Position numbers and translations under genes: made by a program. Of a DNA stretch of 64,000 nt, positions 10,658 through 32,042 are shown one piece after another (within the stretch, counting starts at the first letter, position 1; the number at the start of each line of letters is the position of its first letter). The DNA is from Lama glama (lineage: Eukaryota). Where the stretch lies: contig CM052816.1 in assembly GCA_028534125.1 (NCBI GenBank), positions 70,310,001 through 70,374,000 of the forward strand. The letters run 5' to 3'. Under the pieces are notes generated by a model that ran no database searches, had not been told where the DNA came from, and saw nothing but the letters and a program-made list of their open reading frames with translations.

Positions 10658-10720
10658 TGTGTGTGTGTGTGTGTGTGAGTGTGTGTAGGTAGACATGTGC
10701 ATATATATACACATATATAT
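10658..10720. repeat. (TG)n/(TA)n simple repeat
   Basis: Directly visible in the sequence. Confidence 0.9.
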
Positions 10721-10927
10721 TCAGTAAGCCCATAAATGCATTTTTGTGCCTTACCAATCATCTACTTTGTGTCAGACCTTATTCTAGGTGCCAGGAGTAC
10801 ACTGCTAAACAGTAATAGAAGAAATACATATTAAATTCACAGTAAGATACAATATGTTTGTCTGTGATTGGCAAAATTTTCAAGTTATAATTTAAAAAAT
10901 CATAACAGGCATTCATATACTATTCTT

Positions 10928-11497
10928 TTTTTTTTCTGTTTGTATTGCATATTGAGACAAACACCAAAGGAAACAGAGAAGAAAATATGACCTTTAGACC
11001 ATAATGGAGAGAATCACATTTTCGTTACAAACCTCTCCTCTGACACAGCCCCTCCCCCAACACTGACAAGATACCTGACCAATCCAGGATGTCAGTTGCT
11101 GGTTGGGTTCCAGGTGGAATGTTGGTGTGTTCCCTGGGGCTTGTTGTGGCTGGTGGATCCATGGTAATGGGGCAGAGCCCTGTGGTGTATCAGTGCCAGG
11201 GGGGGCTGCTGTCCTCTGTGGAGCTTGGCTTACAGCTCTTCTTTGGGAAGCTGAGTGAGGTCGTGGTGTTGCTGCTGCCCAATGGCCTGAGTTCATGGTT
11301 CACGTTCTAGAACCTAGAAGGGCAGACAGTGACATCTCTGCCTGTCATCAGCTTATTGGTGGGGGTCTTAGGTACTTTCAGACTTGTTCAGTCTTGTAGA
11401 AGATGACTGTACGGGAGACACGAAGACAAGTTGGCGAAAACGCTGGCTGCACTGATTGAGGAGAAATGCCAACTCACTGACGAGATTTGGGCTGCTA
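10928..11497 (-). mobile_element. L1-mediated retroposed insert (poly(A) on - strand) carrying the cTAGE-like fragment, inserted into an old L1M relic
   Basis: TSD catatactattctt (10914-10927) / catataccattctt (11498-11511), 13/14 identical. A T10 run at 10926-10935 abuts the left TSD. Old L1-like sequence flanks both sides ('gattggcaaaattt...caggcattc' and 'gcaattcaactcctaggaatctatcctaagg'). Confidence 0.7.
11161..11497 (+). pseudogene. MIA2: cTAGE5/MIA2 (cTAGE family)-like disabled, intronless N-terminal fragment
   Basis: One frame from 11161 reads ...LQLFFGKLSEVVVLLLPNGLSSWFTF*NLEGQTVTSLPVISLLVGVLGTFRLVQSCRR*LYGRHEDKLAKTLAALIEEKCQLTDEI. By eye it aligns to cTAGE5 LGLLLEELRRVVAALPEGM...[TM]...[36 protein letters not shown]. 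Stops occur at 11308 (TAG) and 11404 (TGA at the conserved Arg, probably CGA>TGA). Confidence 0.75.
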
Positions 11498-11644
11498 CAT
11501 ATACCATTCTTGAAAACATAAAGAGTCACCAACATTTGGGAAGGAATTTTGGTAATATGTATCTAAAACATTCAAGGTGTGCTGTATAGCAAGCAATTCA
11601 ACTCCTAGGAATCTATCCTAAGGACGTAAGGATGTGCTCAACTG

Positions 11645-11848
11645 GATTATATATTTGAAACTTGCCAAGAGAGTATATCTTAACAGTTCTCATGACAAGG
11701 AAAAAAATTGTAACTATGTGTCATGATGGATGTTAGCTAAACTTATTGTGGTGATCATTTTGCAATATATACCTATATCAAATCATTATGTTGTACACCA
11801 AAAACTAATATAATATGTCAATTATATCACAATAACATTTTAAAAAAT
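11645..11848 (+). mobile_element. L1MA/MB 3' terminal fragment
   Basis: 'atatttgaaacttgccaagagagtatatcttaacagttctc...ttattgtggtgatcattttgcaatatatac...tatgtcaattatatcacaataa'. Confidence 0.8.
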
Positions 11849-11894
11849 GAGGCTGTAGAACAGATCAGGAATTGTATTTGGTGACATGAGGTAC

Positions 11895-15890: not shown

Positions 15891-16436
15891 TAAGTGTCCG
15901 TAGACAGATGAATGAACAAAGAAATTGTGGGATATGCATATAAGAGAGTATTGTTTGGCCAAAAGAAAGAATGAAATCTTGCCCTTTGTGACAACATGAT
16001 GGGTCTTGAAGTCATTATGCTAGGTGAAATAAGTCAGACAGAGAAAGATAAATTATTCTATGATCTCATTTACACGTGGAATCTAAAAAAGCCAAACTCA
16101 TAGAAATAGATTATTGCAGGGGCTGTGGTGGGGTTGGGAGTAAATGAGATGCTGATCAAAGGGTACAAACTTTCAATTATAAGATGAATAAGTTCTGGGG
16201 ATGTATTACAACACGGTAACTACAGTCAGCAATACTGTATTATATATTTGAAAGTTACTAAGAGAATAGATCTTAAATATCCTCACCACAAAACAGAAAG
16301 GTAATTATGTGAGGTGTTAGAGGTGTTAACTAGCATTATTGTGGTAATTATTTCATGATGTGTAATGTGTACCAAATTTTCACATTATATATCTAAACAA
16401 ACACAATGTTATATGTCAATTATATCTCAGTAAAGT
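15891..16436 (+). mobile_element. L1MA9-like LINE-1 3' end
   Basis: 'gtgtccgtagacagatgaatg...gaatgaaatcttgccctttgtgacaacatg...ttatatgtcaattatatctcagtaaag'. Confidence 0.85.
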
Positions 16437-16943: not shown

Positions 16944-17029
16944 TGTCCTCTTGCAGTGATGTCTTAAGCATGAAACACCCTAGGAACCAGAGTATTCCAG
17001 AGTAGCAGGAACATCACTGCAAGAGGACA
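16944..17029. repeat. Perfect 19-bp inverted repeat with a 48-nt spacer
   Basis: tgtcctcttgcagtgatgt (16944-16962) is the exact reverse complement of acatcactgcaagaggaca (17011-17029). Confidence 0.95.
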
Positions 17030-17629
17030 AGTTTCTCCCTACTGTCCAAGAGAATTATTAACAGCCCCCTCTTTCCCATTTAAAAGAGTCATGGCTTAAA
17101 AAAGAAATTACACAGCCACCTTAGCTTTAAGATTCATGTACTACCATTTCACACTGCTCCCCCTCAAATAATACTTATTTAACCAGAGTGGTTATTTCAA
17201 GAAACCTGTCAGCATCAACTGGGTTGAAATTAATCCTTATCTATGAATCCTTAGACACACTTGAGCCTGAATCACAAGTCTGGACTCCTCTCTTCCTAAG
17301 AATATTATTTCAGAGATCTCCTTCCTCCTCTTAACCCACTATACCTTGTGGTCTTGATTCACTCCAGTGGGTCTCCCTACCTTCAAAACCAGGTTTGGAG
17401 CCTCCACCCTAAAAGCTTCTGGACTCATGTGGAAATGATCTACCACAGTCCCCAAGATCTCACACCAGCTCTCACATGATGTACCAAGTTTGATGGAGTT
17501 CAAGGAGATTCTGTAATAGCTAATCCTGGGGCAGCGGGCATCTTCTTGTTCCCGTACAAGAGCAGTAACCAAGAGGGCCATCCACTCATGTGACCCTTCA
17601 CAGGATAATAAAAGATCATTTTTTCTCAT

Positions 17630-18530
17630 TTAAAACAATACATTATTCAACAATAAAAAGACAAATAACCCAATTAAAATATTGCCAAAGGGTTTGAATA
17701 AACATTTCTCCAAAGATGTACAAATGGCCATTAGGCATATGAAAAAGTTCCCAACATCATTAGTCATTAGGGAAATGCAAACCAAAACCACAATGAGATA
17801 CTATTCATACCCATTAGGATGGCCATAATAATAAATAAAAAATCAGCAACAATGACAGGTGTTGGTAATGATGTAAAGAAATTGGAACCCTCATATATTG
17901 CTGGTGGGATTGAAATTGGTGCAGCCACTTTGGAAAATAGGTTGGCAGTTTCTCAAAAATTTAAATTTAGAGTTACCATACAATCTAGCAAATTCATACC
18001 TACGGATATACCCAAGAGAGGTGAAAAATAATGTACACACAAAAACACTTATACAAATGTTCATAGCAAATTAATAATCACCAAAATGTGGAAATAGCCC
18101 AAATATCTATCAACTGATGGGTGCATAAATAAAATGTGGTGTCTCTATACAATAGAATATTATTCAGCCATAAATAAGATTGAAGTATTGATTAATGCTA
18201 CAACAGGGATGAACCCCAAAGACATTGTGCTCATTGAAAGAAGCCAGACATGAAAGGACAAATATTGTGTGAATTCATTTATAAGAAATATCCAGAATAG
18301 GTATATCTATATAGAGAGAGAGTAGATTAGTTGTTTCCAAGGACTGGAAGGAGAGGATGTGGGGAGTGACTGCTAATAGGCATGACTTTTTGGGGGGAGT
18401 GATGAAATGTTCTGAAATTGGATAGTGGTGATGGGTGCACGACTTTGTAAATATACAAAAAAACCACTGACTTGCACACTTTAAATGGGTGAATTTTATG
18501 ATATGTGAATTATATCTCAATTTTAAAAAT
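17630..18530 (+). mobile_element. L1MB-type LINE-1 (ORF2 3' part and 3' UTR)
   Basis: 'caacatcattagtcattagggaaatgcaaaccaaaaccacaatgagatac', 'ggaaccctcatatattgctggtggga', and the end 'atgtgaattatatctcaattttaaaaa'. Confidence 0.9.
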
Positions 18531-19005
18531 ATATTATGCTGCTTCAAGTCATTAGATAATTTGGTTTTAGTTCAAAAACTGATGAGTTATTATTAGTGAA
18601 TTTTTGGAGATGATGTTACACCTAGAACTAGAAGATGAGAGAAATGCTCTGCAGAAGATAGACTTTAGTTTGTTAAGTATTTCCTCACCGTCACACTTGC
18701 ACACACACCCCATACACACACTGTACAGATTTTATATTATACTTCCATCACATGTAATGTAATTTTGTCTTTTCAGGTTAGTCTATCCAAGTAATCCCAC
18801 TTTAACGTGACTTTTTCCTTTTAAAAAAAAGCTTGTAAAATAGGCAAATCATTAAGTTTAATTACTGTCATTTATTTTTCATAATGTTTCCATCAAATAG
18901 TGAGATTATTGTGATTTAAAATATGATATTCACACAAATTTATTTGGATATACTTTAAGAACTATGTGATGAAAAGGTCACCACTACATTGTAATCAGTC
19001 TTCTG

Positions 19006-19340
19006 AAAGGAGTTGCAAACTGCCAGCTTCTGAGCAATAATATCTGGCCTGCAAAGGTGTTTGGTTTGGATTTGCAGAACATTTTGTAAACCAAAAATCT
19101 TTATAAAAACTTTGAATTTCTGGCTTCTCAAAAAAATTTAAAAGACCTGGCAATACCAGCATCATTTTTCTCCAAGAAAAGGGTAGACTGGAGCTAAGAA
19201 GTGACTACTCCCTTTGGATAGGGCATTCAATCTCTAGTTTTGCTACAGTCCCTGCCATTCCCTATTGCATCTCACATTCAACTCCATGTCATACATTTAC
19301 AGCAACTCTGATTCTGTATGCATTTGGGTTTATGACTTTT
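19006..19340 (+). mobile_element. MER102-like hAT-Charlie MITE
   Basis: 'gagttgcaaactg...tctggcctgcaaaggtgtttggtttgg...tttctggcttctc...gacctggcaatacc...tttgctacagtccctgccattccctattg'. Confidence 0.65.
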
Positions 19341-19364
19341 TTAAAAATGTAAGCTTATCAAAAT

Positions 19365-19500
19365 TTTTGTTTCTTTCCTTTTCTTTTTCTCTCTTCCATT
19401 TTTCTTTTCTTTCTTCCCTCCTTCCTTCATCTCTCCCTCTCTCCCTTCCTCCTCCCTTTCTTCCTTCTTCCCTTCCTTCCTCCCTACTTACCTCTTTCTT
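19365..19500. repeat. Polypyrimidine (CT/CCTT-rich) low-complexity tract
   Basis: Directly visible, ~135 bp of almost pure C/T. It accounts for ORF 19265-19600. Confidence 0.9.
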
Positions 19501-19944
19501 ATACGTGCAAATTTGTGTTTGTCACTTAATTAGCTCTAATTTAGAGATTGGATTTGGGTTCATTATTTCCTTTATTTTTGGTCAGCATAACCCAACTTGA
19601 GTAAGGCCATACATACAGAAACTCCCCAGTATAGCTTTCCATACAGATCAGAGAGATTCATCCCTCACTGTATTGTATTAATATACTTACAGCTTTTATA
19701 ATGGTAGGGATAAAGGCATCTCGATTTTTTCTCACACTTTAAGTAAATCAATCACAGTAATGACTTTCTCTGTTATGTTACATAAAGAGACACAAAAGCA
19801 GAGACACTGGGAGTGGCCAGTGAATTTAAGAATATTGGACAATTTTCTTAAGGAAAGATGGACTGTCCTTTACTTATAAGGTACATTTTTCACATTGTCT
19901 GGTTTAGTAAGACAAAGGATGCTTAATTAAATGTGAATGTAACA

Positions 19945-20349
19945 TGGTCACATATTTGGTCTTTCTGGAAGGAGACTCTGAGGCTAAGTTTGGTGTGTGG
20001 CATATTTACTGAGGAGGACTTTGTTATCAACACCTGTGGAAAGGAGAAGTCAAGTTGTGATGCAGTCCAAAGGTAGTCGTGGCTGACCCCACAGGAGCTC
20101 TGGAGCTAGAATGGTCCTTCAGAGTTGTTCCCATTAAGCTAGGATGGCCAATCCTTCATACTCTTACATCAATAAGTTATTAGATGTCAGTTATCCTGGG
20201 AAATGGTGACTTTCAGTGGGGACACTTTCTGCAGCTGGGACAGCCCCTGAAGAGACTGACAGCAATAAGCATCTGCAGAGCCCTCAGCAGCTTGGGCAGT
20301 AGGTCCTTCACTGAAGGGGCATCTGGGTGGTACATTATGGTCACCACCA
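19945..20349 (-). mobile_element. LTR16-type ERVL solo LTR
   Basis: 'tctggaaggagactctgagg...atcaacacctgtggaaagg...gctgaccccacaggagctctggagctagaatggtccttcagagttg' is reverse LTR16. Confidence 0.75.
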
Positions 20350-22596
20350 CGAATCACACATAGAATGTAGCTATTAATTTAAGCAATCAATGAAGCAATT
20401 AAGTGATTTATGCACATAGTAGGTGTTTAAGAGAATGGACCTTATTCTATTTTCAATCATTTGATGATTGAATTTTAAGTCTGTTTCTCTCTGTCTCTCT
20501 GTCTTTCTCTTTTTCATTTTTAAGCTGAGAGTGGAATGTGCAAATCAGTGTAGGTTGAAATGCCAACAACATACAGGTCAACTCTTTTGAAATCATAATT
20601 AGCCAGTCCAGGAATCCTCTCACCTAAATACCAATACCTTTAATAAGACTGAAAAGAAAAGCAAAATGAAGTCAATTTATCAGGAAGCATAAGTTCTTCA
20701 GGATGTGTTTCAGCCATGATACATCTGCTTTACATCTTCATTAACTGAGTCCTTGTGAATTTGAGTGATGTTGTGACAGGCAGCAGCCCTTCTAGATCTG
20801 GTCTAGACTCACTGATGTAGGCTTGGTGAGCTGGCTGAGTGAAGACCATTTATTTCTGTGCTCTTTTTAAAATCTTTTTCTCTCTCTTCTCATTCTTTGC
20901 ATCCATCCCAACAACATGTTTTAATATCTTGTTGTGTTTGGAAAACTCAAAAACTCACAAATTGTGATTTATGTAATATCCAGAATATCTTTTTGAAAAA
21001 TCGTTAGGGAATGCCAAACTAAATAAATCTTTTTCCTTCCGTGCTTCATTTGAAATGATTTACACAGAATCTTTTTCAATAGTAATTATTATGTTTCAGA
21101 GACTGAGATATTTGTTTTGGTTTCAAAATATTTATATGCTTGGTGTCTTTGCAAATGTTAAGTCTTTTACATAGGTTTTTCCTTATTCATTAAACACTAA
21201 ATATGTATGCATAAATAAAGTCTTTTTATTACATTTTGAAATACTATTGTTTTCTAAAATTTTTTTTCAAACATACTCTGGACATTAGTGAGCTCAATAT
21301 GCATGTGGTCATTTAAAATATCTCCTAAAACAGATTTATAATCAAATTCAAGGCTGCCAAAACCACAGTGTGGACTTTGAATACAAATTTAAGCCAGATA
21401 ATCTGCTTTTTAATACCTTCTTTGCAGCAGATTTTGCTCTGAATCTTTTTTTTTCCTCTTTATTTCTTTAGGTGCAGACTTTATATGTCTTTGTTTTTAG
21501 CTCAAGTGCCTCTGATATTTAAGAAGAAATCATCTTCAACAGGAAAAACTATTATTTTCCTCCAATTTACATTTTGCACCAAGTAATTCCTTTGTATATT
21601 CATTACTTTTGTAATCCAGACTACTTATAAACTTTCTTTGGCCAGCGGTCTATTCTTAGTTAAAATATTTCAAAATTTAAAAATAAGAAATTGGTTTATA
21701 GTTTACATTCCTCTTTGTGCTTGAAACTTTCCTAAATGTTGACAAAGTAGACTTAAAGACAGTTTTGTCTACTATACATTTATTCATCTAACTGTAATAC
21801 ATATAGTTGTGATAGTTATAAGTGTATCAAGACAAAGAGAATGAGAAGGCAATGTTGATTAAATAAAGATCAAAAAATGTCAATGAAAGCTTGATGCCAC
21901 AGGACATTTGAAGATGATTTTTACTTAAGTATTTGATTTGCATTTGTTAGTGTGATGAATTGTAATGGGGACATGTACTTTAAATGGCATGAAAAGATTT
22001 CTGGGGACTAGTTTGAGAATGGAAAAACTGAATGACAAATAGAAATCACTCGCCTATTAAGTTTTTTTTTTTCATGTGCAAAAGGCAACATCTAAAAGTA
22101 TATAACTTTTATTACATCTATCATGGTACCAAATCTGTGTCATTCCCTTTTTTGCATGCAGGGAAATTCCAGATAAGTTGGAGGAAATGAACCTTCTACT
22201 CTCCATAATCAACATTCGTAGAGGGAAGAGGAAAGAAAAGATTTACTTAATCAGTGAGAACATTTATCATTTCCAGGAACACTGACATAAAAAGAGAGCA
22301 AACTCTTGTGTTGCTGATGACTCAGTGTTGACAGGAAACCCTACAACCCCTTTCTCTAACAGTGAATCATATGATAATGTCATGTTAGGTGGCAAATCAT
22401 TTAATTACTCTTAATAATCTACAGTTCCATCGGTCAGCCTATATGTTGCAGGTATGAGATACATAAAAACACATTTCATATTATTGCACATTTTGAGTCT
22501 GCCTTTTTCATAAGAACCTCAGTGCTTTTCTGTCTTCTGTGCAGTAGAGGTGAGTAAAAAAATTCACTGCTTTTATAGTACTCTGTCTCCAATCCC

Positions 22597-22953
22597 TGCC
22601 TTAGTCCATTCAGGCTGCTATAACAAGAATACCATAAACTAGGTAGCTTAAACAACAAATATTTATTCCTCATTGTCCTCGTGGAGGTTGGGAATTCTAA
22701 GATCAGGAAGCCAGCAGATTCCTGGTTTGGTGAGAGTCTGCTTCTTGGTTCATAGATAGCTGTCCTCTTGCTGTCCTCACAAGGGAGCTCTCTGGGGTCA
22801 CTTTTATGAGAGCACTAATTCCATTCATGAGCGCTCTAATCTCATGACCTAATCACCTCCCATAGGCTCTACCTCAAAATACCACATTGGAGATGAGGTT
22901 TCAACATGTGAATTTGGAGGTGGAGGGGATACACAAACATTTAGTCTGTAGCG
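22597..22953 (-). mobile_element. MLT1A-type MaLR solo LTR
   Basis: 'tgccttagtccattcaggctgctataacaagaataccataaactaggtagcttaaacaac...catgacctaatcacctccc...aaacatttagtctgtagc'. Confidence 0.85.
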
Positions 22954-23721
22954 GTCTCCTTTCTGTCCACTTTTTTTTTAATCACCAGAAAATATTTCAA
23001 AAAATAAATTAAGACTTATTTTTTGAAGTGTTCTCTCTAGATTCCCCTTCCCTTCCAGTTTGTGTTTGGAACTGTGTTAGATGCTATGAAAAATGTAATA
23101 GAATTAAAACATGTGTTTCCTATTGGGGCTGCCCATAGCCTATAAAGATTCTTTGTGCAAATTTGAAAAAGGTGCCCTTCCCCTGGCAGTCACAGCCCTG
23201 CACCAGGGCTCAAGGCTGGAGGGCAGAGCACCAGCCAGATTTCAGCCCCCATCTGGGTGCCTGTGTGGTACGACCTGACTAGCAGCACACAGGGCCTTGT
23301 TCCTACCTTCTTTTCAGGGATCTTCATGAAAGTTGGGGAGAATGATAAATAGGCCACAACTAGAACATTGCGGTGTATAACTAAATGCAGAATAATGGGT
23401 ATGAACTCGGAGTGGAAACCTGGAGAAAATAAGGATAAAAACACAGTGGAGAGGAAGAGTGGCTTTCTACTCTGAGTAAGAACTTGTGACTCCATGTCAA
23501 ACGTGGATGTCCACTTGGGTCTTGCTAAGCATGGTTCAAGGTAACCCTGGCTACCACTTGTTGAGAAGCAGAGGCCCTTTTCTAAGGCCATGAGCTCCTG
23601 AGGTTCATGTACTCTCCAAGGGAGAAAGAAGGGACTTTCCAAATGACTGATACTGGATTTTCCACCACATTTTGGCAGATGGAGGTTCAAGTTGGTTCTA
23701 ATTAAATCTGAGAAAATCAGG

Positions 23722-23912
23722 AAATGTGCCAGGCCTTATGCTAAGTATTAAACATACGTTTGAACATACACATGGTCCTCACAACACCCTTATGAAGAAA
23801 CTGCTTTTCATGTCATCTGCATTTTGCAGATGAGAAAACTGAAGCTTTAAAACAGCTCAGTAACTTGTCAAGCGTCCAGCTGGTAAATGGCAGAGCTTGA
23901 ATTCAAACTGGG
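23722..23912 (-). mobile_element. MIR SINE
   Basis: 'atgtgccaggccttatgctaag...ttttgcagatgagaaaactgaagc...gtaaatggcagagcttgaattcaaac'. Confidence 0.8.
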
Positions 23913-25252
23913 GCAACCCCCATAGGTATCACAACGTGGCCACATTGCCTGGCCCTACCAGGGCTGAATCCACAAGTCTTTTATACTTCACAGCAGGCCT
24001 ACAGGCTCAGCAAGCAGCTTTATGAACTAGCAGTTCTGGGACAAATCGAAGGACTTAGGTTAAAATATTAGTATTGTGAATAGAGGGAAAACGGCCATAT
24101 ATCCAAATCAATTAGGTATTTGTTATTCCTTGAGGTGGATAGAGACTAAACTGGGCTTGGTTATGGCATACAATACAAGATAAGCCTGTGTAAAGGTAAA
24201 ACCCTTAAAGGCTTCCTGGATCCTATTTGTTAGTTGGTGATCTTTTGAGTTAACATTTATTTTATGCCCTTCTCACATACCTTTTCCATTCACACCTCTG
24301 TTACTAAGCAGGAAGAAGGCACGTGTAGGGGTATGGGCAAGAATTAGGTATTAAGTCTGAAGCCTGAGAAACCTGTACAAGAGCCAATGGGAGGTGATGC
24401 TCAGCTGGTTGAAGGGTCTTGCTGGCTGGCATGGAGAGCCTGAGGGGGGCCCTAAGCCATGAACTCATGCAGTTCTCATGCTGTCCCAGGCAGGAGGAGG
24501 GGGCCTCTCAAATGACTCATCCTGGACTTGACATCAATTTATGTCAGATTCACGTTCAAGTAAGTTTTAATTAAACCTGAGAGAAGAAGGAAAATAAAGG
24601 AAGGTGAAATTACCTCCATCCTGAATGTCACAGGAAGGAAGACTGTAGAATTTATAATCCAAGCTGAGGTCCTTTTGTAGGTCGAAGGGGATTCTATTAC
24701 TATAGGCATGGACTGTGTCAGTCCCAGGCAGTGTTGGAAGTGCAGCTCACATCTGCCATATCTGGAGTTGTTGTTCTTTGTGCGATATTTTAGAGCTTGG
24801 CAGGGTATCTGTCTCCATATATAGAATATAATAAGCATCAGCCACTGTAGGCTCAGTTGAACAGCCACCTCATTCTTCCTAGGCTAGCCTTTTAAAAAAC
24901 ATATTTCCATTCAAAGTCTATTAAGAATCCTCTACCTTAGCAATATGTATTTTAGTCTTTTATGAGTTGGGTTATCCCCAGATTTGGGTCAGAAAGTTAA
25001 AAGTGAGAGGAAGAACTAATCAGGAAAGTCAAGTATAATGGCAGCTCACCCAAGTGAACACCTTAAAAGCATACTCCTCAGGTGGGTCTTCAAAGCCCTC
25101 AATAATGTATCCAGTTAATATTCCTCCTGCTTCTCTGTTCTTGCCACTTCTCTGCCCTCGTCCCTACCACACTTACCTTAATCTGCCTATTAGTCTTCAA
25201 AATGTCCTACTCACTTCTGCCTTGAGCTTTTCATCAAACTCAGAGCTGTTAG

Positions 25253-25813
25253 ATTTACAATAGCCAAGACATGGAAACAACCTAAATGTCCATCAACAGA
25301 TGACTGGATAAAGAAGCTGTGTTATATTTATACAATAGAATACTACTCAGCCATAAAAATAATAAAATAATGCCATTTGCAGCAACATGGATGGACCTGG
25401 AGATTATCATTCTAAGTGAAGTAAGCCAGAAAGAGAAAGAAAAATGCTATATAATATCACTTATATCTGGAATCTAGACAAAGACAAATGAACTTATTTA
25501 CAAAACAGAAACATACTCACATACATAGAAAACAAATTTACGGTTACTGTGAGGAAGAGGGTGGGAAGGGATAAAATTTGGAGTTTGAGATTTTAGAAAC
25601 TAACTAGTATATATAAAATAGATAAACAAATTTCCACTGTATAGCACAGGGAACTATTTTCAATATTTTATACTAGCCTATAATGAAAAAGAATATGAGA
25701 ATGAATATATGTATGTATACATATGACTGAACTTATGCTGTACACCAGAAATTGACACAACATTGTAAACTGACTACACTTCAATAAAAAACAAACAAAT
25801 GAACCAAAAATAC
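25253..25813 (+). mobile_element. 5'-truncated young LINE-1 with TSD
   Basis: Same family as 14863-15444 ('tttacaatagccaagacatggaaacaacctaaatgtccatcaacagatgactgg'). TSD ctcagagctgtt at 25239-25250 and 25814-25825. Confidence 0.92.
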
Positions 25814-26723
25814 CTCAGAGCTGTTGGAATGCACTTCACCCCAAACCTCACCTGCCCCATATCTGCCTAGCAGAACACTATATTTTTTTTAAGTTCCAGT
25901 TCCAATGATCAAATCCTGTTAATAAGATTATTTTAATCTCTCCTCGATGCCATATTTATGTGTCTCCTATACTATTTATCCTACCTTCTCTCTGTAGAGT
26001 AACCATGTAATTTATCATCCAAACCAGTATCCTTTTGAAAGTGAAAGTATGTGCTAAAAAGAATTAATAGGTGTTAATTAATGTATAACAGGTTTGAAAA
26101 AGTGAGATGTGTCATCAGTCTATTGGAGTTTTTTGGATGTGTACCTGTTTGCTCTCACTATTATGTGAGCTCCAGAAAGGCAAGTATATTGGTCACGATA
26201 GGTCAGGTTTGAGCTTCAATAACAAATGACTCCAAAATGTCAGTGGCTTAATCGGAAAAAAAAAAAAGATGATTCTTTATCATCCTGTATCTCCCACATG
26301 AGGCAATGGGGCCGTGGGGAAATCACATCTATACAGCTACTCAGAATTCCAGCTGGCATAGGCTCTGTTACTGTGGGACTGCACCATCTAGAGTAGCCTT
26401 TTTCACTGTCAAGGAAGGGGAAGAGAAATGAGGAAAGTAATGAGCGTGCTTTTCTGTGCTTTGGCCTTCCTTCCACTCACAGATCATTGGCCACATGGTC
26501 TTGCCTAACTCCAGGGGGGCTATAAATGGTGGATTATCTCTGTTGAAGAAAAGATCCTTGAGGGCTCCATTTTTATATATTTATATCCCCATAGTGCTAA
26601 GCATAGTGGTGGACACACGGAAAACACTCAATAATTAATTCATTCTCTTGAATTTGTTGAGTGGTTTGCCTTGACCAATTTTGCTTCCCTTTTTGCCTAC
26701 TTTAAAAAGAAACCTGACTTTTT

Positions 26724-26857
26724 TTTTAAAAAAATTGAAGTATAGTTGGTTTACAGTGTTGTGTTATTTTCTGGTGTACCGAATAGTGATTCAGCCATGT
26801 ATATAGATAAACACATATTCTTTTTTTCATTACAAGTTATTACAAGGTATTGAATAT
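26724..26857 (-). mobile_element. Very short LINE-1 3' tail insertion
   Basis: 'ttgaagtatagttggtttacagtgttgtg...ttattacaaggtattgaatatag'. TSD agaaacctgacttttt (26708-26723) / agaaatctgacttttt (26858-26873). Confidence 0.85.
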
Positions 26858-29379
26858 AGAAATCTGACTTTTTGAAAGCCAGGTTTATGTCTGGCAAACT
26901 TACCTCTGTATATCAGAAATGAATGTTTTAAAATAAAATTGAAAACAAAGGTAAGGAAAGGGTGGGAATTGGTTCTCACCATGAGATACTACCACTCATA
27001 AACTTATGCAGGCTCCTCTCTTTGCCAAAACATCTGTTTGCTGTTGTGTGGACATGGCCTCTCCAATGTGATCTACATTTAAAAGTATGTTATTACATAT
27101 TGATCTATGACTAAAGGTTACACGTGGAATCTTGTGAAATTTACTGATGCCTTTATCACTGGGAGGTAGAGCATAAAATCCATTCAAGTAACCCTCAAGC
27201 TGAATCTTTGAGATTGCAGGCAAAGAGCTGGAGATAGAAACACATATCTGTTCTTTACAGATGGGCAGAAGTATTTCACGCGGGGGGCCGGACTTCCGGT
27301 GCATCTTACTGTGAGAGGAACTCGTCTATGCCCCTCTGGATGGGACTGGCATGGGAAGTGGAAGGAACTAGGGAAGAAACAATCCTTGATACTGTTGACA
27401 GATTTCTTCCTCTTTTTCCTTCTCTGACCCTTCTTCTTCCTGCTTCTCCTCATGTCTAACCATTTTCTCTCTTTTCTTCCATAGCTCCTCTTCCTCCAGC
27501 TGCCCACTTAATATAGTCCCCAGGGAAGGTTTATCAGCTTGCATGGTTTTGTGTGTCATCTTTTTGCAACAGACCCCATCTATATTTGCAAAAAATAAAG
27601 AAGAATTCCAGTTTCCCAGCGCTCTGTGTCTAGGAGATATCAGCATAAATTTCAGAAGGTGCAAGCCTATTGCTGGTCTTGGCATTATCTTTCAGGGTGG
27701 CTTTGGGGCATATTATTTAACATCTCTGGTTTGCTTTTGTGTAAAATGGAAATAAAACTTGTTCTGCTTACTCTTATATGCCTATAGCATCAGTGAAATG
27801 TGAAAATGGTGAGGATGTACTTTTGTTTAATGTATAGAACTATTAAAAATGTCACTCTTAATACTACCAAGGACAACAAATATAAAGCCATAGCCCTGTC
27901 TACTGTTCTAGGCACTGCAAATTCAACATTTTCAGAAACAAATTCTGTCTCTGCTTCCCATGGGGTTTCCCTTCCCCTTGTCCTCTGCCTCCTGTATTTC
28001 CTCTATTACTTCAGGGCCACTTTTCCCAACTGGGAGCCTTAAGGTCATCTCTAACTCATGTCTCTTCTGAACCTGCAGACTTGCTCCATTCAATCAGTTT
28101 ATACATCTTGTTGATTCTGACTCTAAAATGCCTCTCAAATCCACCCCACCATTCCATTCAGACTGCTGCTAGTCTTCTTCCCTGTTCAGATCCTGATCAT
28201 TTTTCTTCTTCCAGTCTATCGACAATGTGTTACCTCTATTCTAGTTATGGCTTATTATAGGAGAGGATCATTGGATGTTCCTGGGCCCATCCCTTTGACT
28301 GTGCCCAATGCCACCTATGGGATATAAGGTAGACCAGGCATTTCAGTCCTTTCTGGTGTGACCATCTGCCTCAGACCCTGTAGTCATGATATATTTCAGC
28401 CGACAAAAAATATTCCCTTACATAAAATACAGAGGCATATTTTGAGGCCCTGATACAGGGGATTTGATGCATGGTGAACCTGTTGAGGAAAGAAGTGGGC
28501 TGGTACACTCCCTGTAGTGCAACCAACATCTTACTGCAACCAAGGACAACTATGGGATAGCAGCAAAGCTACAAAACTCTACTGGTAGCACTTGGCTTCC
28601 TTATTAATGTCCATGAATTACAGTGGGGGTTTTGGTTACTTAAGTTCAGACAATGGTTTCTTACATCCTATGTTTCAACCCGTGCATCTTTGTGCCCTGA
28701 AATAAGGGTTCATTGCAAAAAAATCTTGTGTTTACTTTTTGAGACCAGAAACGAAGATAAAATAAAAATCAGCCTCAAAACTTTTTAGTGTGTTTGCTGT
28801 TTAATCTGTATATCTCTCGAAAGTCCTTGTCTTTCAATTATTATATAAAAACTTGTGAATCAATTAAAAACAACATCAGGTCTCACACATGCAACCAAAA
28901 GAATTGCTCTTTCTTCTCCATGTGTTTCAAATTAGTTCAGTTTGTTCATCAGTGAGAAATAAAGCAGTAGACTGAATTCCTGGCAGAGGCTAATCTAGGA
29001 GTCTCAAAGTATTGGAAGATTAATACAACGTTAAAACTCAGAGTCAGTAAGATTCCTTTCCTGGGAGTTTCACTTGAGATTTTCTATAGTGGTGTATATT
29101 AGTATTTCTGAAATGCTACTTCTACTTTCAATTTAAGTGAAAGACTTGAAAGGCACTGACCTTTCAAGTATATCTTACTACTAGTGTTGTGCTGAATGTT
29201 TATCTCAAAGTTAAATTTGTCATCTTGAGATTGATTCTGTTTTCTACCAAATCACAAAATGTTAAAAATTAGTTATCACTTCAAAACTTCTTAAATAATG
29301 TTTTCATTTATTTAAAAAAATCTTTCTCTCTTTAATAACAAAAAAGAGTTGATAAAAATTATAGAGATTACATAGTTCG

Positions 29380-29500
29380 GATTCTGTGTCAGTCATTGTT
29401 CTAAGCCTTTTATATATATGAACTCATTTAATAGTCATACTAACTCTATAAGGTAGATACCATTATTATACCCATTTACCTATGAGCAAGTTGAGGCAGC
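29380..29500 (-). mobile_element. MIR SINE fragment
   Basis: 'tgtgtcagtcattgttctaagcc...aactcatttaatagtcatac...ccattattatacccattt'. Confidence 0.7.
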
Positions 29501-29629
29501 ATAAAGAAATGGAAAAGTGATGACTCCCCATATTGTATCTCACTTTGCTTGAACTTGAAACTCCAAAGACCCTCACTCTCACTAATGTAGACTTATTTAT
29601 TCTTGTGTTTATTTAGGAGTTAATGTGAT

Positions 29630-29960
29630 ACAATTCATTCATTCTACAAACATTTTTAAGTACAGACTGTGTACCAGACACTTGGTAGACATGGAGATCC
29701 AAGATAAAGACACAGACCCTGCCACGGGAGAGCTTATAGTCTGGTGAGGAGAAAGGCAAGCCAAAGGACAAGCACATGAGTTAGACCAGAGTAAAAGAGC
29801 CTGTAAATGGGATCCTCAAGCCAGGGATGGGGGTCAGGAAAGAAAGTGAAGTGACTTATGACCTTAGGGTCACCTATGAAAGGACATCTGGTGCAGGGAG
29901 CAGAACACAGACAGTAGAGAGATGGGAAAAGGCATTTGAATAGGTCTGTGTGGCTGGTGT
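29630..29960 (-). mobile_element. L2 LINE 3' fragment
   Basis: 'attcattcattctacaaacatttttaagtac...tgtgtaccagacact...gacacagaccctgcc...gagcttatagtctggtgagg'. Confidence 0.65.
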
Positions 29961-30107
29961 ACAGGGTTTGAGAAAAGAGCTTGGGCTTTGGACTTCAACT
30001 GAACTTGACTTTTCTGCCACTTATGTGCCACTTCTGACCCTCAGTTTCCTCATCTTTGAAATAGGGATAATAGCTACCTCAAAACGTCATGAGGATTGAG
30101 ATAACAT

Positions 30108-30588
30108 ATGTCTATTTGTGTTCTGTGACTGTTGTAAAAAAAGTTACCACAAATTTGCTGTCTTAGAACAACAGAAATTTATTCTCTTATAGTTCCAGAG
30201 GTCAGCAGTCTAACATCACTATCACTGGGCTGAAATCCTGGTGTCAGTAGGGCTGCACTCCCTCTGGAGGTTCTGGAGGGAATCATTTTTGTCTCTTCCA
30301 GCTCTTGGGGCTGCTGGCATTCCTTGGCTTGTGGCTACATCACTCCAATTTCTGCTTCCATGACAACCCTGTCTTCTCGTCTTTGGTATGATCTCCCTCT
30401 GCCTCTCTCTTACGAGGACACTTATGATTGCATTTAGGGTCTACCTGAATAATCCAGGATAGTCTTCCCATCTCAAGATCCTTAACTTAGTTTCATCAGC
30501 AAAGACCCCCATTCCATATAAGGTAACATTTATAGGTTCCAGGGGTTGGGATTGATATCTTTATGGAGCCATTATTCAACCTACTAGG
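30108..30588 (-). mobile_element. MLT1C-type MaLR solo LTR inserted into a + strand MIR (29960-30107, resuming ~30590)
   Basis: 'gttaccacaaatttgctgtcttagaacaacagaaatttattctcttatagttccagagg...ataatccaggatagtcttcccatctcaagatccttaac'. The flanking MIR reads 'ctcagtttcctcatctttgaaatagggataatagctacctc...acata | acatgtaaag'. Confidence 0.85.
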
Positions 30589-31589
30589 ACATGTAAAGAA
30601 TATTGGCAAATCTGAGGTCCCCCATACATGCAAATTCCTACCCTCCCACTATTATGTGTTAGCTGGGCCATCAATGGGCCTTAATCCCAATAGTCAGACT
30701 TTTTACCTGTTAACCTTTCTATTTCTAAGCAAGGGTTAGACAGTTTGGGCTTCCAGATAAGCCTGTCAGTATACAAATAAAAAGAGTACGCAGACGAATT
30801 GCTTTGTGTTAATGCAGGAAAAAATTTTTGTTTATTTTGCTAATGCAGTCTAAACCATTAACAGTATTGTGTTGAGTACCCAGTGGTACATTTCAGAGAG
30901 GACTTCTCTTCCACGTTTCATTTTGCCAGGCATGGCAATAGGCTTTGTGTGCAATTTAGAGTAGTTATATATTGATCTTTTCTTCTCTAAGCATTACTCA
31001 TTCTCCTTTGCCCATCAGCATATGGGAAAAATAATCACTACAGAGGTCAAGTAGCACTTAGGAGCAATTTAAGAGTCATAGCTTTTGGCTATGAACTTTA
31101 AGATATTGCTCAACTTTACAGACTCATCAACCCTTACATTTTTTTTGACGAAGAGACAAATATTTGCATAACTCATCGACCCTAAGTCAAGAGGGAAAAT
31201 CACAAGATAAAATATTCATTGCACTGAAAAAGTGAAAATTGAAATTCACTTACAAAATTACTGTTAATGGAATGATAGGCAATGGGATATCTGAAATGAA
31301 TAATGATGAAAAGAATGTATAATATCAAGGATGTCATCCACTTTAGGTTCAACTGGTTGGCTAACTTGAAATTCTTTTACTTTGGCCACGGGACCTTCTT
31401 CTCACATTAGCACTTCAGAGGTTGTCTGTTTAGTCAGAACTATGCTGTCTAGCACATTGATCTGCCCATGTCCTTGTCCCACTTTGGTGGTCATGCTTAT
31501 TGCTCCCTTTCCCTTTCACTTAGATAACAATAAATGTATCTTGAGTGCCCTCATGTACTGGAGGTGTTAAGCTTGCCTCCAAAGAACTG

Positions 31590-32042
31590 TTATTCTTAAC
31601 CTGAGTTTCCCCTGAAAGCAAAAGCTGAGGCAAGGACTTGACGACAAGTGGTTTATCTGGGCAACTTCAGGAATGAAGCATTGAGAAGTTAAAATAGGAA
31701 CTGAGAGAAGGTCAGTCTGGGAGTCACGATCAAATTGGTTACTGCTGTTGGCAGTTGGGGCTCAGTCCTCTTTTAGACCTGCTGAGAATTCATGTAGACT
31801 ATGCATTGGAATTTTTGGCTCAGGAGACAATAAAGGGGAATATTTATCTATTGGTTCCTGTCCCCTGTTGGTGAAGGAACCTTGCACTTCCAGGTTTGCC
31901 TCAGGATGGCTGCGTGGGTCCCTGCAGCCGGGATCCAGCATGATGGTGGCAGAGAGGCCTCAGGGCCGAAAGTTAGTCCATTTAGATGAGATGGATGAGG
32001 TGTGCCAGGTAATACTGGCCATAGCTGATGGCTGCACCAGTG
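31590..32042 (-). mobile_element. LTR33-like ERVL LTR
   Basis: 'tcttaacctgagtttcccctgaaagcaaaagctgaggcaaggacttg...gtggtttatctggg...ggttactgctgttggcagttggggctcagtcc'. Confidence 0.6.

What the first reader, a model, noticed from the sequence alone, without database searches (positions are those of the whole stretch)
10914..11511. cTAGE5/MIA2-like retro-insert whose poly(A) tail is antisense to its coding frame
Seen: a 570-bp block between 14-bp TSDs (catatacYattctt). A T10 run abuts the left TSD, so the retroposed RNA lies on the - strand, yet the cTAGE-like frame reads on + and is cut off at the right TSD. Known: L1-made retrocopies normally have ORF and poly(A) on the same strand; exceptions come from twin-priming 5' inversion or from antisense templates. 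Inference: either (a) this is a copy of a polyadenylated antisense RNA that ran through the 5' end and upstream region of a cTAGE-family gene, or (b) it is a twin-primed inversion with most of the mRNA deleted. Case (a) would be fossil evidence of a germline antisense transcript at the parent locus.
Basis: partly seen in the sequence, partly recalled or inferred. Interest (0 to 1): 0.7.

Follow-up and report, generated by a model that had tools for sequence, protein, structure and literature searches.

The report
Backwards retrocopy kin to camelid satellite
A short dead piece of a cTAGE-like gene was pasted here backwards by LINE-1 machinery, most likely from an antisense RNA, and its sequence matches a major satellite on camel and alpaca chromosome arms, which suggests that this satellite grew out of the same gene.

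Summary
The anatomy is real: a 13/14 TSD, 8 extra T's and a 562-bp insert whose cTAGE5-like frame reads opposite to the tail. The insert is colinear on one strand with its relatives right up to the tail. The unexpected relative is the 5.3-kb camelid satellite VpaSat11-5308 (short arms of 16-20 chromosome pairs); parts of the insert have relatives at hundreds to about 2,000 times single-copy depth in three DNA runs. The window copy branches early among camelid copies, so it came from an ancestral-type copy, not today's satellite. Best reading (0.55): one L1 reverse-transcription pass on an antisense RNA (read-through, orphan transduction or antisense transcript). Main rival (0.27): twin priming on sense RNA with the first arm reduced to the T run. 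The rival stays open because there is no good poly(A) signal and the satellite has a pyrimidine tract opposite the tail. No expression was shown. The insert is an ordinary kind of event. The more interesting result is that this satellite seems to be built on a short cTAGE5-like retrogene, which I did not find in print.

The parts
10914..10927 (.). Left copy of the 14-bp target-site duplication (3' end of the insertion, which lies on the - strand)
10928..10935 (-). A8 tail (T10 on + if the two TSD T's are counted); may be partly templated by a pyrimidine tract in the parent
   Evidence: satellite has pyrimidines at 9 of 10 positions opposite the T10 run, read by eye, tested
10936..11010 (+). 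Upstream flank of the parent gene, colinear with the VpaSat11-5308 consensus and with a second single-copy locus; no inversion junction
   Evidence: by-eye ungapped match 22/38 over 10936-10973 (p 2e-4) and 32/50 over 10936-10985; loose end aligns at 10974-11004 with a score reached by 0 of 5000 random window pieces
11011..11196 (+). Leader region of the short cTAGE5-like gene; very high-copy relatives; two exact words (14 and 17 nt) shared with VpaSat11-5308
11197..11497 (+). Dead first ~100 codons of the short cTAGE5-like gene: start codon lost by a 1-nt deletion, two stops, cut at the right TSD; at least 92 further codons are missing
   Evidence: (table 4)
11498..11511 (.). Right copy of the TSD; its end gives the nick site TCTT/G on the + strand, a near match to the L1 endonuclease consensus
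   Evidence: consensus from PMC12016303 and PMC5110952 passages

Best explanation
L1 ORF2p nicked the + strand at TCTT/G, primed on an A-rich end of an RNA that ran antisense through an ancestral camelid copy of a short, intronless cTAGE5-like gene, copied about 570 nt in one pass and stopped (5' truncation inside codon ~100), leaving a 14-bp TSD. The RNA could be a stand-alone antisense transcript, read-through from a neighbouring L1 or host gene (orphan 3' transduction), or a transcript of an early array. Priming could be on a true poly(A) tail or an internal A tract. Shown: TSD, tail, one orientation, identity of the parent family, presence in relatives. Inferred: L1 as the enzyme, the strand of the template RNA, germline expression. 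The insert is a dead passenger. The same parent lineage also gave rise to the 5.3-kb camelid satellite.
For: TSD, T run and endonuclease-like site. Colinear + strand match to the satellite consensus up to the first base after the tail: 9/12, 14/30, 22/38 and 32/50 in one ungapped register (by eye; p values). A second single-copy contig in 2 of 4 runs (X1, X15) runs colinearly from about 10950 and carries the satellite's letters at 10974, 10986 and 10993. None of the 8 joints listed changes strand. In human tumours twin-priming gaps have a median of 14.5 bp and the poly(dT) arm is on average 2.6 times the inverted arm (10.1101/2024.08.27.596794, passages); germline non-inverted arms have a median of 571 bp (PMC12016303 section 8). 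Here that arm would be 0 nt and the gap at least 276 nt plus the 3' UTR. L1 is known to insert polyadenylated intronic or intergenic RNA (PMC5110952) and orphan transductions (48 in 1,019 humans, PMC12350158).
Against: No canonical poly(A) signal 10-30 nt before the tail: AATACA ends 5 nt before it and AATATG (two mismatches) 12 nt before it. The tail is only 8 nt. The satellite has pyrimidines at 9 of 10 positions opposite the T run (p 0.005-0.011, post hoc), and T retention there (3/8) equals that next door (4/8), so an ancestral T tract is possible, and that also suits the twin-priming rival. No antisense RNA was seen: the one RNA run laid is unstranded contigs, and its family-to-flank depth ratio (about 24,000) lies inside the DNA runs' range (17,000-32,000), as DNA carry-over would give. 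The satellite consensus looks noisy and only its first 400 letters are visible. No empty site was seen.
Confidence: 0.55

Rival explanations
1. Twin priming on the SENSE RNA with the first arm lost. The first nick primed on the poly(A) tail. The second nick primed internally at codon ~100 and copied back to a U-rich tract about 260 nt upstream of the start. Its A-rich end annealed to the poly(T) of the first arm and the rest of that arm was trimmed or never made. No antisense RNA is needed.
For: Pyrimidine tract in the satellite exactly opposite the T run. No proper poly(A) signal. 5' inversions occur in 13-22% of human L1 and pseudogene insertions (PMC12016303). Antisense-oriented mRNA pieces in L1 chimeras are attributed to twin priming (PMC13174262, passages). 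An unchecked note on this genome reports a few hundred mobilised copies carrying a mini-cTAGE (e1-7801848), which, if true and sense, gives many chances.
Against: It needs a 0-nt first arm and a gap of at least 276 nt plus the 3' UTR, far outside the reported medians, although those surveys require both arms to align and would miss tail-only arms (my inference). It needs a sense RNA that includes at least 260 nt upstream of the start codon. Complementarity at the internal priming site is only 0-2 nt depending on the relative used.
Confidence: 0.27
2. An ordinary 5'-truncated copy of a camelid non-autonomous element (half-L1 type) that carries the cTAGE-like gene backwards and ends at 10936.
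For: Several single-copy loci 82-88% alike were seen (table 8).
Against: Copies of such a family would pile up at the tail, but contigs showing the listed difference fall from 11-16 per run at 11234 to 1-5 at 10993 and 0-2 at 10974 (the human-likeness filter and higher divergence there weaken this). No L1 ORF1 family hit in six frames of 10928-11100 (short pieces, weak test).
Confidence: 0.08
3. DNA-level templated insertion (a patch copied from a family member into a staggered break), with the T run copied from the donor.
For: The T run may be templated. Donors are very abundant.
Against: A 14-bp TSD with an endonuclease-like end is a class 1 (L1) feature; class 2 patches lack TSDs (PMC5110952). 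The T run sits on the side predicted by the nick site.
Confidence: 0.07
4. One reading: classical twin priming, with 10936-~11000 the parent's 3' UTR in the opposite orientation.
For: Only that the 3' UTR of the parent was never seen, so it could not be compared directly.
Against: 10936-11004 matches upstream family sequence on the + strand. No high-depth cover at 10951-10983 on either strand and no strand-changing joint.
Confidence: 0.03

Closest known systems
Class 1 templated sequence insertions (TSIPs; PMC5110952, passages read) and orphan L1 3' transductions (PMC12350158, passages read)
   Same: Non-L1 genomic sequence between TSDs at an L1 endonuclease-like site, with a poly(A) tail whose strand is unrelated to the donor gene's strand.
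   Different: No AATAAA 10-30 nt before the tail, a tail of only 8 nt, not seen to be polymorphic (present in 3 of 3 DNA runs), and the donor is a gene family that became a satellite. A source L1 was not looked at.
Twin-primed 5'-inverted L1 and pseudogene insertions (PMC12016303 section 8 and passages; 10.1101/2024.08.27.596794 passages)
   Same: Gene sequence next to the 5' TSD reads opposite to the tail.
   Different: There is no second, non-inverted arm and no inversion junction inside the insert.
VpaSat11-5308 and the related VpaSat08/09/12 camelid satellites (PMC13751797; abstract, results part 1, section 14, discussion part 1 and the xlsx supplement read)
   Same: Homologous, same orientation, over 10936-11087 (the visible part of the consensus).
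   Different: Single dispersed 562-bp piece, not tandem. It lacks the private changes of the satellite-like copies and branches earlier.
D4Z4/DUX4 macrosatellite (PMC2965761 search listing; PMC3334996 abstract)
   Same: A kilobase-scale tandem repeat whose unit holds a retrogene; D4Z4 is transcribed in both directions, with antisense predominating in reporter constructs.
   Different: The camelid array carries a membrane-anchored cTAGE5-like fragment rather than a transcription factor and lies on 16-20 chromosome pairs. Neither coding capacity nor transcription of the array was shown here.
cTAGE5/MIA2 family retrocopies
   Same: Homolog P0075 aligns to a MIA2-like protein at E 2e-15, 38% over 111 aa; source names 'cTAGE-6' and 'CTAGE8' on homologs.
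   Different: The direct parent is a ~205-270 aa intronless gene seen in camel, ruminants, raccoon dog, ground squirrel and tree shrew, not the ~800 aa cTAGE5 (length recalled). The tail is on the wrong strand for a processed pseudogene.

Membership tests
Class 1 TSIP (L1-made insertion of non-L1 RNA) | Target-site duplication of at least 5 bp | tested here: met
   13/14 TSD
Class 1 TSIP (L1-made insertion of non-L1 RNA) | Insertion at 5'-TTTT/A-like site | tested here: inconclusive
   Site is TCTT/G, near but not among the three motifs listed in PMC12016303
Class 1 TSIP (L1-made insertion of non-L1 RNA) | Non-templated tail of 10-40 A | tested here: inconclusive
   8 A outside the TSD; satellite has 3 T of 8 but 9 pyrimidines of 10 opposite the run; tails shorten with age (recalled)
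Class 1 TSIP (L1-made insertion of non-L1 RNA) | Poly(A) signal 10-30 nt before the tail | tested here: not met
   Only AATACA at 5 nt and a two-mismatch hexamer at 12 nt; decay since insertion could have hidden one
Class 1 TSIP (L1-made insertion of non-L1 RNA) | Polymorphic, with an empty allele | tested here: inconclusive
   Right junction present in 3 of 3 DNA runs, left junction in the 1 RNA run; no joint skips the insert. Contigs show presence, not absence; no outgroup was reached
Twin-primed 5' inversion | Two arms of the same RNA in opposite orientation | tested here: not met
   One orientation from 10936 to 11497; only the T run could be a first arm
Twin-primed 5' inversion | Arms meet close together on the RNA | tested here: not met
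   Gap of at least 92 codons plus 3' UTR against a median of 14.5 bp
Orphan L1 3' transduction | A full-length source L1 just upstream of the donor on the transcribed strand | not testable with these tools
   No genome held; donor locus not retrievable
Processed pseudogene of a cTAGE-family mRNA | Homology to cTAGE5/MIA2 | tested here: met
Processed pseudogene of a cTAGE-family mRNA | Poly(A) on the coding strand after the 3' UTR | tested here: not met
   Tail is on the opposite strand and at the upstream end
VpaSat08/09/11/12 satellite family | Sequence homology to the monomer | tested here: met
   Two exact window words (14, 17 nt) in the VpaSat11-5308 cell; loose ends recur there
VpaSat08/09/11/12 satellite family | Tandem 5.3-kb units | tested here: not met
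   One 562-bp piece; no second copy in the window
   No Pfam hit in six frames of 10928-11100; no L1 part inside the TSDs that window self-comparison could see

The most novel reading that the evidence does not exclude
The main short-arm satellite of camelids (5.3-kb VpaSat08/09/11/12 family) is a D4Z4-like retrogene macrosatellite built on a short cTAGE5-like gene and amplified to hundreds or thousands of units. Its ancestor was already transcribed antisense in the germline with a defined 3' end about 260 nt upstream of the start codon. This insert is a dated fossil of that antisense RNA, from before the satellite acquired its own changes.
Probability: 0.2. Interest if true: 0.7.

Novelty: new member of a known kind. 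Interest (0 to 1): 0.42.

Why it matters
The insert itself is a dead passenger made by known L1 routes. It is useful as a marker. It links a newly catalogued camelid satellite, for which the authors report no match to known satellites and whose main text never names cTAGE, MIA2, TANGO or retro-, to a cTAGE5-like retrogene. That gives the satellite an origin and makes it a candidate second retrogene macrosatellite to compare with D4Z4/DUX4. The copy here preserves near-ancestral sequence, so it can root the satellite's history and test for AT-to-GC drift under concerted evolution. If an antisense 3' end is confirmed, it would date antisense transcription of this unit to before or early in the amplification.

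Tried and rejected
No whole genome is held for the window. Protein-guided scan of metagenome contigs: 187 pattern matches, none confirmed. A 22-nt motif: 0 matches in metagenome, viral and genome contigs. Antisense translation P0068 as bait for spurious ORFs over the upstream region: 4 candidates, none at E<=1. Pfam: nothing on 5 local frames or 6 tail-proximal frames; 1 sub-cut-off hit among the 148 longest of 688 stop-to-stop frames of 40 aa or more, so no host gene was found, but short exons were not scanned. Rfam: 0 in the window. Rebuilt empty site against the rest of the window: no hit spans the junction, so my impression that the target is an old L1 fragment stays recalled and unshown. 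RNA run X15 as evidence of expression: rejected, depth ratio as in DNA runs. Cover at 10885-10950 in X4 and X9 as proof of the left junction: rejected, both have no cover at 10974. One loose end (before 11010) aligned only weakly, reached by 74 of 5000 random pieces. Paper searches cTAGE+alpaca (1), cTAGE+camel (6), MIA2+camel (5), cTAGE+macrosatellite (1) gave no listing on camelid cTAGE amplification; I saw titles and abstract starts only; one search gave 0. Earlier-findings look-ups by sequence, place and relatives gave nothing.

Full report
Observation. The block is as described. A 14-mer at 10914-10927 recurs at 11498-11511 with one mismatch. A T10 run at 10926-10935 shares two T's with the left copy, so 8 T's are tail and 10936-11497 is the insert proper. 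Of 34 T or A runs of 8 or more in the window, only this one and one other have such an adjoining repeat; the other, 26708-26871, resembles other repeats in the window and looks like a short L1 3' end (the name is recalled). The insert is 50% GC against 34-36% outside. The right TSD ends TCTT/G on the + strand, near the L1 nick consensus, which puts the insertion on the - strand.

The frame. Read through two stops, the + strand matches a family of short proteins, about 205-270 aa, from camel, ruminants, raccoon dog, ground squirrel and tree shrew. One member aligns to a MIA2-like protein at E 2e-15, and sources name members cTAGE-6 and CTAGE8. These frames lie in one piece on short contigs, so the parent is intronless (inference). 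The closest named relative is a Camelus ferus copy, 80% over 56 aa and 85% over 20 aa (P0013, P0114), whose frame goes on for at least 92 codons past the window's breakpoint. Homologs start at about 11197, where the window lacks one base. In a tree of 34 rows the window copy joins the camelid rows (support 91/86, not starred, bootstrap not settled) and branches first on a short branch (0.12), while the satellite-like rows P0084/P0110 have a long one (0.46). Calling those two rows satellite-like rests on their match to multi-contig loose ends.

Relatives in DNA. I laid 4 of the 24 listed runs. Contigs bridge the right junction in 3 of 3 DNA runs (5-7 differences in about 250 letters) and the left junction in the RNA run (6 differences and 1 gap in 329). 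The insertion is therefore shared with organisms about 2-3% diverged. No empty site was seen, and the left part is missing from the DNA runs, possibly through the tool's human-likeness filter. Inside 11017-11478 summed depth reaches 10^4-10^5 against 8-28 on the right flank; per contig that is about 260 to 2,000 times single copy at the six places computed. This is not a copy number, but the family is clearly highly amplified, including its coding part.

The amplified family is a published satellite. The supplement of PMC13751797 shows the first 400 letters of each alpaca satellite consensus. VpaSat11-5308 holds the loose ends and two exact window words of 14 and 17 letters. The paper places it, with VpaSat08, 09 and 12, on the short arms of 16-20 chromosome pairs, amplifiable in all camelids tested, with no match to known satellites. 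Its main text has 0 occurrences of MIA2, cTAGE, TANGO or retro-. Its pptx supplement and figures could not be read and might annotate the monomer. The visible part ends near 11087, so that the monomer holds the coding part is inferred from depth, not seen. Four paper searches gave no listing on cTAGE amplification in camelids (titles and abstract starts only); subscription papers are mostly outside the library.

Testing (a) against (b). Read by eye in one ungapped register, the satellite matches the + strand at 18/20 over 10966-10985, 14/30 over 10936-10965 and 9/12 at the tail-proximal end; p is 2e-4 for 22/38 and 0.012 for 14/30. A loose end aligns at 10974-11004 better than all 5000 random pieces, a second one only weakly (74 of 5000). 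A second single-copy contig in X1 and X15 runs from about 10950 with the satellite's letters at three places. None of 8 listed joints changes strand.

What remains open. There is no canonical poly(A) signal. The satellite has pyrimidines at 9 of 10 positions opposite the T run, and T's are kept there (3/8) as often as next door (4/8), so the ancestor may have had a T tract at this spot. That fits internal priming on an antisense RNA. It also fits twin priming on a sense RNA, with the inverted arm joined to poly(T) and the first arm lost. Reported twin-primed insertions have long first arms and short gaps, which argues against that rival, but such surveys would miss tail-only arms. I could not test its structure. 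If sense, it raises the twin-priming rival; if antisense and ending here, this insert is one of many, but contig numbers fall towards the tail rather than rise. The RNA run shows no expression of the family beyond what DNA would give and has no strand.

Mechanism and verdict. Most likely (0.55) a single L1 reverse-transcription pass on an RNA running antisense through an ancestral-type camelid copy, as in class 1 templated insertions and orphan transductions. It works like a class 1 TSIP but fails the poly(A)-signal test, so I do not file it as one. It is not a processed pseudogene and not a satellite unit. The event is ordinary. The link between the camelid short-arm satellite and a cTAGE5-like retrogene, recalling D4Z4/DUX4, is the part worth following. 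Papers seen: PMC13751797 (abstract, sections 10 part 1, 14, 15 part 1, xlsx supplement with cut cells); PMC12016303 (passages, section 8); PMC13174262, PMC12350158, PMC5110952 and 10.1101/2024.08.27.596794 (passages; supplements not opened); PMC3334996 (abstract); PMC2965761 (search listing).

Noticed in passing
window 26708-26871: A second short insertion with a 13/14 TSD and a T run on the left; its inside resembles other window repeats (25654-25785, 73%) and looks like an L1 3' end on the - strand. Served as a positive control.
   Followed up: partly
record 9 (X15), on window 11043-11476: A 2513-nt contig in the reproductive-system RNA run at depth 80 (flank 5.3) carries a camelid paralog; P0109 lies on a contig of the same length. 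The match starts at 11043, close to a pyrimidine-rich stretch ending in AG at 11047 that could be a splice acceptor. It may be an expressed copy; strand and DNA copy number unknown.
   Followed up: no
records 1, 15, 21, on window 11069-11451: A single-copy locus in all three DNA runs goes back 383 with 72 letters between, i.e. a local tandem duplication of about 455 bp of this gene piece. C. ferus P0069, from another subfamily, also repeats its N-terminal part.
   Followed up: no
proteins P0013 and P0114: The closest C. ferus copy is joined by gene predictions to aminotransferase exons (PF00155; they look like SPTLC3, recalled), so it lies in or beside such a gene on the same strand. A candidate parent or sibling locus.
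   Followed up: no
proteins P0102, P0111, P0112: A ground squirrel has head-to-tail repeats of a longer MIA2-like frame, so tandem amplification of cTAGE-type sequence may recur in mammals. Ruminant short-gene clusters also have up to 48 members, though these may be alleles.
   Followed up: no
window 10936-10950: 5 of 6 differences between window and satellite consensus go from A/T to G/C (by eye), which would fit GC-biased conversion in the array; the sample is tiny and the consensus noisy.
   Followed up: no
window 10659-10688 and 11560-11850: A TG microsatellite left of the insert; an old repeat right of it (11641-11835 is 71% like 16234-16433), recalled as L1M-like.
   Followed up: partly
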